From Octopus vulgaris (Eukaryota), in the NCBI GenBank assembly GCA_951406725.2, contig OX597815.1, positions 85,746,001-85,810,000 on the forward strand: DNA of 64,000 nt, given 5' to 3'. The notes under the pieces are model-generated. The model was given only the letters and a program-made list of their open reading frames with translations. It searched no databases and was not told where the DNA came from. This document shows positions 32,118 to 55,278 of the stretch, one piece after another. Position 1 is the stretch's first letter; every line of letters starts with the position of its first letter. A program made the translations under genes and the position numbers.

Positions 32118-32488
32118 ATATATATATATGAAAACCTAAACTTTTTTTATTAAATCCATGAAAATATTAATAATAAATATCATTTTCCAGTCTAGGAACA
32201 ACAAAACAAGCGTAAAATAGCAAAAAAGCATATACAGGGGTATTTGAACTTAAGACGGGCTGTGATTGCTGCAATGGAGAGAGACGACGAATCACAGCTT
32301 TCTATTTTGTAATCTGGCCTGTGATTGGTGTTTTGACCGATGCTCAGATCTGCAGCATCTTTCCTTGTCTCTCTCTTGCGGCCATTTCGCTTCAAGCTTT
32401 CTCGCCGAGTGGTTTACTGTACTACTTCACGATGTGCTGTGTGTGATTTTTTTTTCTTTGCATTGAACTTTGCGTTTTCATCCCTGCA

Positions 32489-33355
32489 ATGGCTCCCAAG
32501 CGTGCTGCTTTTTCCAAGGCTGGTACTGAGCCTAAACGCAAACGAAGAATGATGATGATCGCTGAGAAGGTGAAACTTCTGGATATGTTGAAGGAAGGGA
32601 AAACTTTCGCTACCGTAGCCCGCCATTTTAGCGTGAACGAATCCACCGTTCGCTACATCAAGAGGGACGAGGCTAACATTAGGAAGACGGCTGCCATCAC
32701 CTTTGATATGTCGGCGAAGAGAGTGGTTATGGCTCGTAATAAAACTATCATCAGTATGGAAGCTGCTTTGGCCTTATGGAAAGCCGACTGCCAAAAGAAG
32801 AACATAGCCTTGGATACGAACATCATCCAAACAAAGGCTAGGAGCTTGTACGAGACTTTCACCGTTAAGGAACCTGAGGACGGCAGTGGCGACCACGAAG
32901 AAGAGGAAAAAGAAGAAGACGGCGTAGAAGATCCGCAACCAGGTACGTCCAGGGATTTACAACCTAAAAAACGTCCTTTTTCTGCTAGCAAAGGTGGTTT
33001 GTTAAGTTTCAGAAACGCTTCCGCCTAAAAAGCGTTTCCCTGCATGGCGAGGCTGCTTCTGTTGACCACGAGCGCTGCTGAAACATACGTGAATGAAATT
33101 TTCAAGAAGATTGTCTCCGAATGTGGATATAAGCCCGAACGAGTTTCTAATATGGACGAGACGGGCTTGTTTTGGAAAAGAATGCCGTTGCAAAATTTCC
33201 TGCTCAAAGAGGAAGCAAAAGCCTCTGGCTTTAAAGCATTCAAGGATCGTGTGACCCTCGTGATGTGTGGCAATGTTGCGGGATTTTTGTTAAAGCCAGG
33301 ACTTATTTACATGTCTAAAAACCCAAGGACTTTAAGAAACAAAAACAAGAATCTG
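32489..33355 (+). pseudogene. Tigger-type (CENP-B HTH + partial DDE) transposase, frameshifted and truncated
   Basis: IAEKVKLLDML..VNESTVRYIK, FSASKG, frameshifts near 33000-33050, then NMDETGLFWKRMP and KDRVTLVMCGNVAG. The rest of the DDE domain is missing. Confidence 0.9.
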
Positions 33356-33724
33356 CTGCTACTACTACGGTTGCACCTTCGGAAGAAGTGGAAGAAGTGT
33401 CCCAGGAAAGGGCACCGCCGTAAGCTTCATAATCATCATTTCTACTGCGCAGCAAATTCATCACCATTATCATTCAAATTTTACTTCAACTTCTTTCGTG
33501 TTGAGTACAGTAACAATCTTTATTTAAAGTGTTATTGCTTAACAGTTGTCCTTGTTATTAATAGACTACTGTAATGAGTGGGTCAACAGTACAGGGAGGT
33601 TTTTAAAAGTCCAAATACACGTTAAATAAATACTGTAAATATGGTGTCCCTACTTCGCGGAAGTTCAGTTATCGCGGCCGGTCTCGGAATCAATCTACCG
33701 CAATAAACGAGGTATCACTGTGTA

Positions 33725-44481: not shown

Positions 44482-45309
44482 TGCATGTATTTACTTGTAT
44501 GTTTGTGTGTCTGTGTGTTTATGTCTCTGTTTATGTGTGCTTCATCTTCTACTGTTTTCCGTCATTATCGATCTCGGAAAAAAACAAAAGCTTAAGTCGA
44601 CTGGGTGCTAATTGAATAAACCAAAACTCATTAAACCAAACACACGCATCGACATACAGACATACACACACACTGACTCACACAGACCCACTAACATACC
44701 ACATATAGTTACTGCCATATAGTTACAAATATTCAAATAGTCATATACATACTCACACACACACACAACAACAACAACAACAACAACAAAACCAACAACA
44801 TACGCACACAACCACACATGTATATAAATACATACATATGTATATACATTCAAACGTGCAAACATGCTCAGAGCTTGTTTCTCTTTTTATTTTTGATCTC
44901 AAGGTCGAAGCGTGTACTATCTTACCTATGAACATTATTTTACACAACGTAGCTTAATCTTGGCTCCAAATCGTAACACATTCCATGTATACGTTCCGGC
45001 GTTAGTTCCGTTTTCTATTATAAACCGCTCTCCTCACAACCCGTCCTTATTTATACATACATCATAGTCTCTTTTACTGTCCTTGTTTCAACTTTCCTGT
45101 CCTTGTACGTCTATCAGGGTTCACCATCTATACTCCAGCACCTTACGTTGCTGGCGCGCAAAATTTAACAGTATTGTCAGATTGTGTCGAAACTGTGATG
45201 ATATTTTGTTATCATCTGATGAGGGTTAGCGTACATTCGTTTCTGAAGCTTTTGTTTGTCATCACTTTGTGCAATCATTTGTTATTATTGTTGTTACACA
45301 TTAGACAAA

Positions 45310-45510
45310 GGCGGCGGCCTGGCAGAACCGTTAGCAAGTCGGATAAAATGCTTAGTGGCATTTCGTCCCTCTTTATATTCTGAGCTTAAATTTCACCGAG
45401 TTCGACTTTGCATTTCATTCTTTTGGAGTCGATAAATTAAGCACCAGTAAAGCATTGGGGTTCATGTAATCGACTAGCAACCTCCCCACAAATTTCAGGC
45501 ATTGTGACGA
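45310..45510 (+). mobile_element. SINE family A copy
   Basis: GGCGGCGGCCTGGCAGAACCGTTAGC head and GACTTTGCATTTCATTCTTTTGGAGTCGATAAA core. Confidence 0.8.
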
Positions 45511-46121
45511 TAATAGACTTACACTTTAGACATACGTACACATATATACTCACAGACACGCATATATATTACATAAATATGCATACATGCATCTGATAGG
45601 CCTCTCACTATTTCGGTTTACCTAATTTCATTTACGAAATTTTGGTCGACCTGAGACCACGACAAACGTCACCTGATCACTATGTTGCAGAATCGCTCAG
45701 GTGTCTTCTTCATTTATAGCTCTATCAGTATTGTGCAATGAACTGTTAACCTCATTACAGTCATGTCTGCATCCTAAAAATATTTTTGTTAAAAGTGCCT
45801 CTAATCAGAGATGATATAATGAAATTCGGGTTATATAATATATTTAATGCAAGTGACTAGACAATGCGCATGGCCTAGTGGTTAGAGTGTTGCGCGATCG
45901 ATAACTCATGTGTTCAATTCTCGGACGAGCGACCTGTTGTGTTCTTGAGCAAAACACCTTATTTCACGTTGCTCTTGTAAATGACTAACCCTGCGGCGGA
46001 ATAGACTTTCGATCATGGGGTATGTTGGCATGCTCGCCTTGCCAACGAGCTGGTTTCATTTGAAAGCTAAAACACACAAACACACATACACTCGCACGAA
46101 CACACGCACACGCATGCAAAC

Positions 46122-46196
<75 letters not shown>

Positions 46197-46250
46197 CTGT
46201 ATATGTATATATGCATAATATATATAAATACATCATGTATATATATATAA

Positions 46251-46988
46251 ATAAATAAATATAAGGATGATATTAAAATACCGTCACGAGTGGTAAGCGA
46301 ATTATCAGTCGTACAGGCAAATTAATAAAATATATACATACAATATTAGATATGTACATATATATACACAAGGGTACTATATGAGTACCTATATCCCTAA
46401 AAAATAGAAGTCAAAAAATACTTCTGTACCACAGAATAGTCACAAATCTATTACAGACATATTTTTTTAGCGATATAGGTACTCATGTAGTACTCCTGTG
46501 TATATATATGTACATACATAATATTTTATGTATATATTTTATTAATTTGCCTGTACGGCTGATAATTCGCTTACTACTCGTGATGGTATTTTAATATCAT
46601 CCCTATATTCATTTATAAATTCTACAAATTTCGTTTCTTCCTATAATACTCGGTCACTTCAAACGAACGTTTGCAGATATGGTGGGGGAGAATGTTAGTA
46701 GTAATTTAGCTGGCGGAATTTGGCTGATGAGAAATCGGGCACCTATTTGGTGCGAAATTTCGAAACCGATACCAAGTTGGTCAGCATTTACTTGTTCTGA
46801 TCCAGTAGAGGTAAGACATTATTATTGGTCACTGATATTTTTTCCTACCATGTCTGTAATAGATTTGTGACTATTCCGTGGTACAGAAGTAGTTTTTAAC
46901 TTCTATTATTTTAGCGATATAGGTACTCATGTAGTACCCTTATGTATATATATGTACATATCTAATATTGTATGTATATATTTTATTT
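46251..46988 (+). mobile_element. Non-coding HHR-bearing element: 444-bp monomer with about 80-bp terminal redundancy plus 210-bp inverted copy (retrozyme / non-autonomous Penelope-like)
   Basis: TTAGCGATATAGGTACTCATGTAGTAC at 46467 and 46911. 46251-46460 is the reverse complement of 46850-46910 joined to 46467-46616. Confidence 0.8.
46709..46785 (+). ncRNA. Type I hammerhead ribozyme
   Basis: GCTGGCGGAATTTGG-CTGATGA-GAAAT..GCACC-TATTT-GGTGC..ATTTC-GAAA-CCGA-TA-CCAAGTTGGTCAGC. Core boxes intact, long helix I, 5+5 bp helix II. Helix III ACCGAT is one change from palindromic ACCGGT. Confidence 0.8.
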
Positions 46989-47014
46989 ACATTATATATA
47001 TGTATACATTATAG

Positions 47015-47057
<43 letters not shown>

Positions 47058-47689
47058 ATGTATATATCACATACACACACGCGCGCGCACGCACACATAC
47101 CCTTACACACACACATATATATATTATTATATATGTGGGTATCTGAATTATTCAATATTTTGGAAGGTATAGTTTTCAAACGAAGGCTGTTTGAAACCGT
47201 CCAATCAACGCGTCAACCTTCCTGGTAGTCGTAAACTAATATAATCTTATATAAACCCAATTTTGGGGACAGCTGAAAACAATGCAAAAAAGTAAAAACG
47301 AGAGAAAAAGAGGCCGATGAATACTTTGGAATATGTCAGGAAAACGTTCTGATTTATGGTATTACAGCCACAGCAAGTGGCTACGATTTTCTTCTTACTC
47401 CTCATAACTTGTAAGTTCAAAAAGTGAAACCTTTAACGACATCCACCAAACTCCTGACATTTGTCGATTAGGAATTTCAGATTCTACATGTGCTTCTTTC
47501 TGATATACTGTTGTAACCAATCATTAATGCAAAATATGGAATTTTGTTTCAGTATTTATATAACGATTTTATGTACGTAAAAACTCTAATGCACTGAAAA
47601 CTAAAGGTGTCGTCAATATCATTAACATTCTGCTCCCTTTCTAATCTACCTTCTCCTCCTTATACTTACTACTGCTACTGCTGCTGCTG

Positions 47690-47753
<64 letters not shown>

Positions 47754-49850
47754 GTAAAGCTATAAGCAACGAAACGAATGTCAAATAACAACTCAATGTG
47801 TTGGGAGTTACAGAAGAAAAGGAAGCAAAGACTGTCAGAAGCCTCCCAAAAATTCATAAAGCGATCAACGCACAATTTATAAACATGATCATGTTTATCA
47901 CAGAAACAGGAATGAGGTAGGTTTCGTGAGACGTATGTTGGAAGGAAAGATACCATTAAAGTAGAAATACATCTTATACTCCATACGGGAGGCGACGAGA
48001 GAGGAATGATGAGAATTAGAAAAAAAATGCTTAGTAACGTTAAGAGGCAGTACAAGAGAAGAAAGACCCGTAGAACAACGACTATGGAACAACGACTAAG
48101 GAAGAAGAGAGATAAAAAAAATGTAAATTTGCGGCAATGAGAGAGGGGTTGAAGTAAAACTACGTAAACAAGACCAATAATCTAACAAACTCGCTTTTCA
48201 ACATGTTTTAAAAGAGGAAGAACAGAAGGAAGAACATCAACCCAAATATGGCAATAATATTTCATACAAAGGCAAATAAGACATTAGTAAGAAAGGGAAA
48301 ATACGTTCAGTGAAAAGTTAATGATGAGCTTGGTATAGCGGCTGATTTAGCAATCGATCTAATATAATATTTCCAAGATGGATATTTAGAAAATGGCAAG
48401 AGAAGACTAGAAATGGGAATATCATTGTAGTTCTTGTAGTGATTAATAGAAAGTAGTTTAGTTTTTGCAGAGTTGAAAATACCGGGCCAAGAATACAATC
48501 CTAATGAACAGCAGAGGAGATAGTATAATGACAAAATGGTGGTCTTTAACAATAACTTTAGTGCTACATTCATCTGGAAAATATTCAAGGGTTTCTAACG
48601 CTTCTTCGAAAATGATTTAAGCCTTAAGAATGTGGCGATGACCTTTCAAATGTTCTCTTTATGTCATCAATAATAACAGTTGTTTTTGATATTCATGGGT
48701 AACAGTACTCGTTTTGGAACAACTTCTCTCAAGGGCAACTTCTCTCAACCCTATAAACAGAGCGCAGTAAAACCGTTTACTTATTTGTCATAAAATCAGC
48801 AACGAAAACGAAGTATTGAAGCTGTTCTGTTTGTCAGAACATAGACAGAGTAATTCACAATTGAGGGTCGGAATTATTTGATAAAAGACTTGGGGATAGG
48901 GGATTCATGGACCGGGGTCATCATTCACGGTAATGTTTGGATGCCGACTTTTTTTCAGGAGATGCTGTGCTGGGTAAGATTTGTCTAGATGATAGGAGTG
49001 GATTATTTTCTCTGAGTGACGTCGATATAATTTTTGCCTGAAATGCAGTAAGGCAAATATAAGTAAAATATCAAGGAGACTTCCGACAATGAATTGTTGT
49101 ATATGCATTGTGCATTGACATAACACTGAGAATGGTTTCAGACACCCATTTAATCATCCTTACTCGACCGTACTCGGCAGTTGGTGACTTTCAACTCTGC
49201 AAAAACTAAACTACTTTCTATTAATCATTACAGGAGCTACAATGGTATTCCCATTTCTAGTCTTTGTCTTTTCGTTTTATCGATTTCTAAATGTCCTTCT
49301 AGGAATGATTGTATTAGAACTGTTAATAAATCAGCCGCTATACCAAGCTCACCATGAACTTTTCACTGAATTTATTCTCCCCTTCTTACCAATCACTTAT
49401 TTACCTGTGTGTGAAAAAATATTGTCTCATTTAGGTTGATACCCTTCTTTGTGTTCTTTCTCTCTTAAAACATGTTGAAAAGCGAGTTTGTTAGATTATT
49501 GGTCTGGTTTAAGTAGCTTTACTTCAACCCCTCTCTCATTGCCACGAAATTACATTTTTTTAAATATTTCTCTTCTATAAAGACTCCCGTAGTCATTGTT
49601 CTGCTGGACTTCATAACGTTGCTAATCGAATGATGCATTTTTTTGCTACTTCTTTTTTTTTCCCTTCCTAAGATGTGTTTCTACTTTAATAGTTTTTCCT
49701 TCCACCATACGTCTCATGAATCCTACCACGTTCTTTGATAAACGTGATCATATTCATAAATCGTGTATTGAACGCACTACAGTTCTTTTGATATTCTTTC
49801 TTTCCTTTTCTTCTGTAACTCCCAACACATTAAGGCGTTGTCATTTTATC
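47690..49850. mobile_element. Degraded CR1/Jockey-like LINE on the minus strand ending in (TAG)n, plus an inverted second copy of its 3' part
   Basis: Minus FNSAKTKLLSIN..SWKYYIRSIAKSA. About 47770-48250 is the reverse complement of about 49430-49850 (e.g. AATAATCTAACAAACTCGCTTTTCAACATGTTTTA). Confidence 0.6.
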
Positions 49851-51719: not shown

Positions 51720-52760
51720 TTTATACCTAACGGGCGATTTACGGAATTTAACGCTCCTTACAGAAGAATTACAGAACTACGAATAAGGATACACTTAGAA
51801 AAGCCAACTTGGAAATTAAGAAAATCATGGTTACTCATGATAATAAACACAATCGTCGAAAGATCCTACGGGTGTTTACACTGGAAAAGACACACCTTTC
51901 ACTCATATAAATAGTGACTAATATAGATAACCCCTCGATTTCAAAAAAAATTTTTCCTATATTTCACCCCAATAGTCAAAAAGATTTTCTTATATTCTCA
52001 ATTACTACTATCCATCCTTGCGTTGCCTCTCACCTCGCCCGATTCTTTCTCCCTTTCGCTATCTACTTTCCTTTCTCTACAGTAAACATAATCGAACACA
52101 CAGACACAGACCTTTCACCTCACAGCTGTCAGTTTTCTGACATCTACCCATCCACAAACACAATCACACATTCAGACACACACATACACACATTAAGACA
52201 GTTATATACAGTCACATACACAGGCACTCATTCACAAAAGAAATCATTTAAACCCACCATTCTTTTGACCTGCACTCTCTCACCTTACTATTCTTATGCC
52301 TCCCTCCTCCTACTTCGTTTGAATTCTCGAACCTTTAGAAACTTCTAGATTCTTCTACATTCAGCCACTCTGACGTCACTCATTATAAAGAGACACTCAT
52401 TATCGCCATGGGCTCCTTGAGAGCGGTCAGCTAAAAGCTTTTTGTGCATTTTGATGTCGACATAAGTTCCTTGATTTTCCTGATGAGAAATCTGCATAAT
52501 GTACTCCTTATTCCTTCGGAATTAGGAATATGCAGCCTTCGAAACATATGTCGAGAATAAAGGATATTTGTTAACTAGTCGTTCAACTCCATTCTTTCAT
52601 ATACTTATAATTTTAAAATAAACATACAAATTTCCGCACGAAGACACGTAGTCTATGCCCTAGGGCCGTAGCTTCAACCGTGTTCTTTCTGATGTGAATT
52701 TGCTACCCAGGTATCGGTTATCTTTCGAATTATCCTTAATAAGATAATTCATTCAATTAC
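51720..52760 (+). mobile_element. 5'-truncated Penelope-like element (possible GIY-YIG C-terminal remnant, pyrimidine-rich UTR, HHR-bearing pLTR)
   Basis: NLEIKKIMVTHDNKHNRRKILRVFTL loosely fits the Penelope endonuclease C-terminus. HHR at 52469 followed by AATAAA. 3' part matches 20478-20748. Confidence 0.55.
52469..52563 (+). ncRNA. Type I hammerhead ribozyme with complete catalytic core
   Basis: CCTTGATTTTC-CTGATGA-GAAATCTGCATA..TATGCAGCCTTC-GAAA-CATATG-TC-GAGAATAAAGG. Helix I 10 of 11 pairs, helix II 10 of 12, palindromic ACATATGT helix III. GUC cleavage predicted after C52552. Confidence 0.88.
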
Positions 52761-53992: not shown

Positions 53993-55278
53993 CGAGGGGC
54001 GTTCAATAAGTAATGCTCGTGACCCACTTACAATTATTTGATCTAGCTGAAATTTTGCATGTGCAATTATTTATATATCTAGAGATTAAGTGGCAAATTA
54101 CAGCTCTGAACTAATTGTGGTTTCTGATTTACAGGTGTTTGAACTGAGTCAAGTGTGAAATGGAGCCTGTTGAGTGTCGAGCAGTGATCCGGTTTTTGTA
54201 TTTGAAAGGACGCACACCACAGGAGACTTTTGATGAAATGAAAGTAACTTATGGTGATGATGCCCCATCATATGACCTTGTAAAATGATGGCATCGTGGA
54301 TTCAAACATGGTTGGAACTCTGTGGAAACAGCTCCCAGATCTGGTCGCCCCCCTTCTGCCATTGATGAGGCATCTGTCCGTCAAGTTGAGGCTGCCATTT
54401 TGGAAGATCGATGCATAACTATTCGCCAAATAGCCCATGAGGTCAAGATTAGTACCAGGTCTGTGGAAACTATCATTCATGACCATTTGCATATGCAAAA
54501 GGTGTCTGCTAGATGGATTCCCAGGTTGCTCACACCTTTCCAGAAGCAAGAACACGTCGAGTGCTTGAGGATGAATTTGGAGATGTGCCAAGAAGATGAG
54601 TCAAAATTTTTCAAAAGACTGATTACACAGGATGAAACCTGGGTCCATCACTATGATCCAGAGACCAAAGCCCAGTCAATGCAGTGGAATCACCGTGACT
54701 CACTTCCTCCAAAGAAGGCAAGGGTGCAGCCCTCCGCTGGCAAGGTCATGCTCACAGTCTTCTGGGACCAGGACGGAGTAGTGATGACAGATTTCCTGGC
54801 AAAGGGTACCACAATTACAGGAGCCTATTATGCTTCACTTTTGAAGAAATTAAGAGAAACTATCAAAATCAAGAGGCGGGGCAAGATCAGCAAAGGCATC
54901 CTCCTCCTGCAGGACAACGCTCCGGTCCACAACTCGCTTGTCGCCAGATCAGAAGCACAGGCGTGCGGCTATGAACTCCTCCCCATCCCCCCTACTCTCC
55001 TGACCTTGCACCCTCTGATTTTCACCTCTTCCCAGCCATGAAGTTGATTCTGAAAGGAAAGCGTTTCCCAGATGATGCAGCCTTGATTTCTGAAGTCACG
55101 TCGTGGTTGGAGGACCAAACTGGGGTCTTCTACAAAAACGGTCTCCAGAGCTGCATCAAGATGGGAGAAATGCGTAAATCTGGGTGGTTCCTATGTAGAA
55201 AAAGACTAATAACTTTGCCAAGTTTCGTTGCTCTACTGCAATGGGAAGTGGATCAGGGGCATTACTTATTGAACGCCC

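What the first reader, a model, noticed from the sequence alone, without database searches (positions are those of the whole stretch)
46251..46988. 444-bp ribozyme monomer whose inverted copy reads through the head-to-tail junction
Seen: the plus-strand unit has about 80 bp of terminal redundancy. The adjacent inverted copy spans the end of the monomer (46850-46910) and continues about 150 nt into its start (46467-46616), further than the redundancy itself. There is no coding capacity and one well-formed HHR. Inference: the cDNA was templated on a circular or multimeric RNA, as proposed for retrozymes. This is the best candidate here for a roughly 444-nt circular ribozyme RNA.
Basis: partly seen in the sequence, partly recalled or inferred. 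Interest (0 to 1): 0.75.

Follow-up and report, generated by a model that had tools for sequence, protein, structure and literature searches.

The report
Aged Penelope-pasted hammerhead retrozyme insertion
This is one old, damaged copy of a non-coding 440-base mobile repeat that carries a predicted self-cutting RNA motif, a kind already known in animals; its back-to-back arms were likely copied by a Penelope-type enzyme from one RNA, possibly a circle, but the inverted arm alone does not show a circle and this copy is unlikely to make one.

Summary
The described anatomy is real: a 444-bp unit with 84 bp of redundancy, a 211-bp inverted arm and a minimal type I hammerhead. It belongs to a dispersed, non-coding family (about 1,000 first-look candidates; 181 loci analysed) inserted in (TA)n. 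Copies are neither random permutations nor ends of a long element. Their 3' ends sit at two fixed sites about 70 nt apart, their 5' ends vary, and 38 of 261 arms run past one unit back into the same unit. In 26 of 30 back-to-back pairs one arm ends at each site, and paired arms share rare variants (30 against 4.8 expected): a Penelope-type, two-sided insertion from one RNA. The informative site is the ribozyme cut, which the inverted arm does not cross but the direct arm does. A circle (about 0.55) or an uncleaved multimer (about 0.35) remains open. This copy has one mutated ribozyme and cannot excise a monomer. It is a new member of the animal non-LTR retrozymes. The scan has noted the same two-site pattern in other retrozyme families of this genome.

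The parts
46200..46250 (.). (TA)n-rich left target flank, next to a (TCTA)n run
   Evidence: sequence; 177 of 200 classified family 3' ends lie in a TA run
46251..46460 (-). left cDNA arm, unit positions M391-444 + M1-157; 3' end faces outward at the long ('tail') site; does not include the ribozyme
46251..46323 (-). tail (about M84-157), present on this arm only
46460..46987 (+). right cDNA arm, 1.19 units (M1-444 + M1-84); 3' end faces outward at the short site; crosses the ribozyme cut site once
46673..46857 (+). long basal RNA stem (46673-46699 with 46831-46857) that carries the ribozyme at its top; kept by compensatory changes between subfamilies
46720..46775 (+). minimal type I hammerhead motif; predicted cut after 46771; stem III palindrome damaged at 46769
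46945..46987 (+). AT-rich hairpin (about M42-78) followed by the short priming site (M78-87)
46988..47067 (.). (TA)n-rich right target flank
   Evidence: sequence

Best explanation
This is an aged insertion of a non-coding 440-nt repeat with a hammerhead motif (a non-LTR retrozyme), likely written into a (TA)n microsatellite by a Penelope-type reverse transcriptase/endonuclease that likely primed both DNA ends of one break on the same RNA, probably a circle. Shown: family, unit, two fixed 3' ends next to hairpins, variable 5' ends, back-to-back arms with one long and one short end, arms sharing rare variants, read-through of the cut site, no open frame. Inferred: rare copies with two ribozymes are transcribed, cut by a double hammerhead into 440-nt monomers and ligated; the enzyme starts at M146-158 on one DNA strand and at M78-87 on the other, using UAUAU pairing with the TA target, copies upstream round the unit, and the two truncated cDNAs are joined at their far ends. 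This copy is a dead end. Part confidences: non-autonomous Penelope-type retrozyme about 0.9; two-sided copying of one RNA about 0.75; circular template about 0.55.
For: Dispersed family: 82 exact ribozyme-core matches and 79 tail-motif matches, controls 0. 3' ends: 144 of 225 at M143-165, 56 at M70-93, 25 elsewhere; 43 head-to-head pairs and 0 tail-to-tail; 26 of 30 classifiable pairs have one end of each kind (P 3e-5 against 0.5; 12 of 16, P 0.04, in loci first found by other queries). Paired arms share 113 non-majority bases against 30.6 expected, and 30 rare ones against 4.8 (33 pairs); the window's arms differ at 10 of 183 sites against 17.6 expected. No pile-up at the cut: 22 of 74 tail-selected arms cross it; 4 of 49 arms reaching M322 stop at M306-321. 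No long source array: longest arm 2.46 units, 4 arms cross the cut twice. The unit, both end sites and the core persist in an older subfamily at about 74-83% identity; 5 of the 6 basal-stem pairs that differ between subfamilies stay paired, 2 through changes on both sides. Penelope-type elements exist here: 148 GIY-YIG matches, 16 in 781-aa frames. Inverted 5'-truncated copies, one-sided tails and (TA)n targets are described for these elements (PMC8557442); two internal start sites and extension of both strands were shown in vitro (PMC11167929).
Against: No RNA or cleavage data. The anole Penelope enzyme uses uncleaved RNA, and Naiad elements without hammerheads also form partial tandems, so read-through does not need a circle. 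In L033 the last pass differs from the first two (2 shared variants with each, against 28 between them), which one pass round one circle cannot give. Repeats within one arm share rare variants only weakly (5 against 2.2, P 0.07; all shared variants 45 against 21). No significant stop at exactly one unit. 4 of 30 pairs break the long/short rule and 13 of 43 could not be classified. No autonomous partner was identified. 23 of 57 long-end arms stop at M225-254, about twice the rate at M166-224, which could mark the 5' end of a linear transcript.
Confidence: 0.55

Rival explanations
1. Same element and same two-sided Penelope-type insertion, but the template is an uncleaved linear read-through transcript, with partial tandems renewed by template jumps or unequal exchange; the ribozyme is largely a passenger.
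For: Ribozyme cleavage was not needed for insertion and unprocessed RNA was the main substrate in vitro (PMC11167929). L033 passes are heterogeneous. Haplotype mosaics occur (L003, L032, L046). 5' ends cluster at M225-254.
Against: Only 4 of 261 arms hold two cut sites and none exceeds 2.46 units, a thin supply of multimer sources for arms that go beyond one unit. The core, the palindrome and the stem are kept across subfamilies about 20% apart. Successive passes mostly carry the same haplotype.
Confidence: 0.33
2. The copies are 5'-truncated ends (pseudo-LTRs) of a long autonomous Penelope-like element.
For: Fixed 3' ends, tail, inversions and TA targets are those of such elements. Retrozymes have been traced to pseudo-LTRs in Xenopus.
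Against: All 38 arms longer than one unit return to the same unit. Among 100 single arms of 250 nt or more only 2 pairs share upstream sequence, and they join the unit at different positions. No similarity to 40 loci around Penelope-type genes beyond short AT-rich hits.
Confidence: 0.06
3. The inverted arm arose after insertion by DNA-level fold-back or conversion, not by a second priming event.
For: Shared rare variants between arms could also come from conversion between inverted repeats.
Against: The window's inverted arm holds a continuous M391..157 stretch that the direct arm does not contain in one piece. Family-wide the partner arm ends at the other fixed site in 26 of 30 pairs, and there are 0 tail-to-tail pairs against 43 head-to-head.
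Confidence: 0.06

Closest known systems
Metazoan non-LTR retrozymes (Cervera and de la Pena 2020, PMC7229834; Li, Clavereau and Pollet 2026, bioRxiv 10.64898/2026.07.22.740005)
   Same: Non-coding unit of a few hundred bases, low GC (35%), one type I hammerhead per unit, head-to-tail repetition, strong predicted self-pairing, co-occurrence with Penelope-like elements.
   Different: 440 nt, above the 170-400 nt of the 2020 paper though inside the 51-972 bp range of the 2026 preprint. Mostly sub-unit fragments, at most 2.46 units. Fixed paired priming sites and inverted arms are not described in the parts read ('inverted' has 0 occurrences in the 2020 main text). Circles and cleavage are shown there, not here. 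No sequence link to an autonomous element was found here.
Penelope-like element insertions (Craig et al. 2021, PMC8557442), including non-autonomous Chlamys elements such as MRC1
   Same: 5' truncation, partial tandems, inverted 5'-truncated copy, tail on one end only, (TA)n targets, hammerhead in the repeat.
   Different: No ORF; tail about 70 nt rather than 30-40; here the tail/no-tail split between the two arms is near-strict (26 of 30).
Anolis Poseidon element PAc in vitro (Frangieh et al. 2024, PMC11167929)
   Same: Two internal start sites at a stem-loop, AT-rich targets, both strands extended, read-through of the ribozyme site.
   Different: That paper found no difference in start site between the two strands; the genomic pairs here imply one site per strand. 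Start sites here are UA-rich and can pair with the target, whereas PAc starts in an AC-rich loop not homologous to the target.

Membership tests
Metazoan non-LTR retrozyme | Type I hammerhead motif in each unit | tested here: met
   Core positions match in 15-17 of 17 young and 12-17 of 17 old copies; stems I, II, III paired in 91-97% of cells. Damaged in the window copy.
Metazoan non-LTR retrozyme | Short non-coding unit repeated head to tail, no LTR or ORF | tested here: met
   440-444 nt unit; 38 of 261 arms above one unit; no conserved frame.
Metazoan non-LTR retrozyme | Two consecutive units with complete ribozymes ('active' criterion of Li et al.) | tested here: met
   Met for the family in 2 of 181 loci (L006, L033, each with one stem I mismatch). 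Not met for the window locus, which has one.
Metazoan non-LTR retrozyme | Self-cleavage of the transcript | not testable with these tools
   Needs in vitro transcription; only 1 of 9 predicted Xenopus dimers cleaved, so the motif is no guarantee.
Metazoan non-LTR retrozyme | Accumulation as circular RNA | tested here: inconclusive
   Only assembled contigs of runs guessed to be RNA were available; they cannot show circles.
Non-autonomous Penelope-like element | Fixed 3' end with optional tail, 5' truncation, inverted 5' copy | tested here: met
Non-autonomous Penelope-like element | Insertion in microsatellite / AT-rich targets | tested here: met
   177 of 200 3' ends in TA runs.
Non-autonomous Penelope-like element | Sequence shared with the end of an autonomous partner | tested here: inconclusive
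   None among 40 loci drawn from 148 scored GIY-YIG matches of 6,136 candidates; most candidates and other clades were not examined.
Autonomous Penelope-like element | RT plus GIY-YIG open frame | tested here: not met
   No frame in the unit; no tblastn hit of 5 local Penelope-type proteins anywhere in the window.

The most novel reading that the evidence does not exclude
A Penelope-type enzyme pair copies one retrozyme RNA circle from both strands of a single (TA)n break, each subunit starting at its own hairpin-adjacent site about 70 nt apart; this one rule yields the inverted copy, the one-sided tail and the partial tandem, and it has carried a 440-nt viroid-like lineage through at least two subfamily generations with its fold conserved.
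Probability: 0.4. Interest if true: 0.55.

Novelty: new member of a known kind. Interest (0 to 1): 0.3.

Why it matters
The class is known and this copy is dead, so the locus itself matters little. The family is a usable record for two open points: which enzyme moves animal retrozymes, and how Penelope-type elements make their inverted, one-tailed insertions. The long/short rule and the variants shared between arms give a concrete prediction (one RNA, two strand-specific start sites) that the existing in vitro system can test. Younger retrozyme families in the same genome, noted earlier by this scan, are better bench material; this family adds depth in time.

Tried and rejected
RNA evidence: no RNA holder listed (19 of 24 rows hold part of the stretch, none on record as RNA). 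Contigs of 6 runs guessed to be RNA and 2 of unknown kind were laid: pieces of many genomic copies with their own flanks, no piece spanning a unit, no joint going back one unit in the guessed-RNA runs, thin cover at M162-230; contigs cannot show ends, strand or level, so nothing is concluded. Autonomous partner: none found; Penelope-type fragments abut the long end in L010 and L150 but show no DNA similarity to each other, so shared TA targets explain them as well. snRNA-type promoter (lead from note e1-8662630): a 12-of-12 match to the element at about -61 of U1 genes lies on the antisense strand near M370-381, but a U1+U2 matrix score was reached by 18% of 500 shuffles and no sense-strand match was found; not supported. 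Stop at exactly one unit as a circle signature: 4 of 13 short-end against 0 of 12 long-end arms at M78-95, and 7 of 19 against 1 of 14 at M115-126, both P about 0.10; not claimed. Consensus folding of 30 young copies gave almost no covariation (2 of 48 pairs); covariation appears only when the older subfamily is added, and the side hairpin is not supported (3 of 5 differing pairs broken in this register). Rfam gave no hammerhead match. A look-up of earlier scan notes by this sequence found nothing.

Full report
Observation. The region is as described. A direct repeat of 84 nt (92%) lies at 46460-46543 and 46904-46987, 444 apart. I number the unit M1-M444 from 46460. The minus-strand copy at 46251-46460 aligns in one piece to M391-444 followed by M1-157, 195 of 211 identical. 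A minimal type I hammerhead motif lies at 46720-46775 with the predicted cut after A46771 = M312. The unit folds better than all 100 shuffles (z -5.3), mainly through a 27-bp stem under the ribozyme; the family majority folded as a circle gives z -7.3 against 60 shuffles. Rfam does not recognise the motif. The only frame across it (63 aa) is not kept in the family majority.

The family. The window lies in G000, a 2.8-Gb genome in 227 contigs; earlier scan notes call it an octopus, which I did not check. DNA searches gave 596, 1,024 and 1,073 first-look candidates, 40 scored each time. Exact patterns found 82 ribozyme cores and 79 tail motifs, dispersed over the large contigs, controls 0. After dropping 29 duplicate loci I mapped 181 loci with 261 aligned segments ('arms') on the unit. 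The samples are selected by query and are not a census. Arms of 250 nt or more are a median 92% and at most 96.5% identical to the majority (150 arms), so the family is not recent. The window's arms are 92.7% and 95.1% identical to it. The family motif is GAAACCGGUA; the window has A at 46769, where 16 of 17 young copies have G, and the self-duplex needed for a double hammerhead drops from -10.3 to -1.3 kcal/mol. An older subfamily at about 74-83% identity has the same unit, end sites and inversions. Between old and young majorities 6 of 27 basal-stem pairs differ; 5 stay paired, 2 through changes on both sides, and the catalytic core is kept. This counts copies along a shared history, not independent events.

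Insertion anatomy. Of 225 arms of 100 nt or more, 144 end at M143-165, 56 at M70-93 and 25 elsewhere. Junction reading places the real ends at about M146-158 and M78-87, each just after a hairpin and in a UAUAUUU(U)AUU stretch that merges with the target; 177 of 200 such ends lie in a TA run. 5' ends vary. There are 43 head-to-head pairs and no tail-to-tail pair. In 30 pairs both ends could be classed, and 26 have one long and one short end (P 3e-5 against 0.5); in loci first found by queries that did not need the tail it is 12 of 16 (P 0.04). 18 of 76 tail-selected loci have such a partner. The window is a typical case: long end on the left arm, short end on the right. Paired arms are more alike than unrelated copies: 416 differences against 522 expected, 113 shared non-majority bases against 30.6, 30 rare ones against 4.8 (33 pairs). 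That points to one template RNA or one source locus per insertion; later conversion between the arms is not excluded.

M444|M1 is not a special junction: it is where this copy's right arm stopped. A ribozyme-made circle would be closed at M312|313. The left arm does not reach that site, and its extra 3' length is the tail. The evidence for a circular or multimeric template is elsewhere: the right arm crosses the cut and overruns one unit; 22 of 74 tail-selected arms cross the cut, with no pile-up there (4 of 49 arms reaching M322 stop at M306-321); 38 of 261 arms exceed one unit and all return to the same unit. A cleaved linear monomer is therefore not the usual template. The proposed refutation (collinear ends of a long element) fails too: among 100 single arms only 2 pairs share upstream sequence, at different unit positions, and nothing links the unit to 40 loci around Penelope-type genes.

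Circle or uncleaved multimer. For a circle: no long array to serve as source (maximum 2.46 units; 4 arms cross the cut twice; both cores complete only in L006 and L033); successive passes mostly share haplotype (45 shared variants against 21 expected, 28 arms); ribozyme and fold are conserved; circles are the main form in coral, mussel and axolotl retrozymes (PMC7229834). Against: the anole enzyme inserts from uncleaved RNA (PMC11167929); elements without hammerheads also form partial tandems (PMC8557442); L033's last pass is unlike its first two; rare variants shared within an arm are not significant (5 against 2.2); no significant stop at one unit; 23 of 57 long-end arms stop at M225-254, unexplained. 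Public contigs did not decide. I put the circle at about 0.55. Whatever the family did, this locus has one damaged ribozyme and cannot release a monomer by double cleavage.

Mechanism. Shown: the anatomy above. Inferred: a Penelope-type protein cuts (TA)n on both strands, binds the two hairpins at about M42-78 and M123-142, starts cDNA at the UA-rich site behind each, one per DNA end, copies upstream through the ribozyme, and the two truncated cDNAs are joined. Such enzymes are present (148 GIY-YIG matches, 16 in 781-aa frames), but the partner was not identified.

Comparison and literature seen. Li et al. 2026 (10.64898/2026.07.22.740005): parts 1-3 of 5, main text through discussion; supplements not seen. 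Cervera and de la Pena 2020 (PMC7229834): passages and sections 14 and 17; its supplementary figures, not seen, may list cephalopod repeats. Frangieh et al. 2024 (PMC11167929): parts 1-2 of 4. Craig et al. 2021 (PMC8557442): passages. PMC6155905: passages on dimeric cleavage. That palindromic stem III loops are typical of Penelope hammerheads is recalled, not read. Five searches listed no paper on octopus or cephalopod retrozymes and none pairing retrozymes with twin priming; the library lacks most subscription journals. Earlier scan notes report the same two-site, back-to-back pattern for 355-, 360-, 490/495- and 596-nt families in this genome; my counts were made before that look-up, and those notes are not independent support.

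Verdict. Real feature; new member of the animal non-LTR retrozymes with a Penelope-type insertion footprint; first reading partly supported. Interest 0.3. Most novel reading not excluded: two strand-specific starts on one circle (probability 0.4, interest 0.55).

Noticed in passing
window 52476-52556 (+): A second hammerhead-like motif of another family (palindrome ACATAT/ACATGT type); a near-identical motif lies in L098 near a Penelope-type gene.
   Followed up: no
window 55528 (-): A third, weaker hammerhead-like motif with an AT-rich stem II.
   Followed up: no
window 47783-49846: About 700-bp inverted arms at 75% identity around a 710-bp centre; possibly an old DNA transposon or another inverted retro-insertion; no hit with local Penelope-type proteins.
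   Followed up: partly
window 54289-55041 and 32447-33574: Mariner-type (Transposase_1) and Tc5/pogo-type (CENP-B, DDE_1) transposase remnants.
   Followed up: no
L121, L122, L130: A young Penelope-type family with an upstream frame of 330-480 aa and a 781-aa RT/GIY-YIG frame; its end repeat carries a variant hammerhead-like core (UUGAUAAG ... GAAACAUGU) and upstream tandem repeats with CCAAT- and CRE-like motifs (motif names recalled).
   Followed up: partly
unit M225-254 (window 46684-46713): 5' ends of family copies cluster here (23 of 57 long-end arms), at the 5' arm of the long stem; stall site, microhomology or transcript start is unresolved.
   Followed up: partly
L305-L330: U1 and several U2 gene groups share an ATCAGT core at about -58 to -62, a probable proximal sequence element of this genome.
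   Followed up: partly
L003, L032, L046: Mosaic haplotypes between the two young subfamilies, suggesting template switching or conversion.
   Followed up: no
window 45305-45500 and 45865-46060: Interspersed repeats that look like tRNA-derived SINEs (resemblance recalled, not tested).
   Followed up: no
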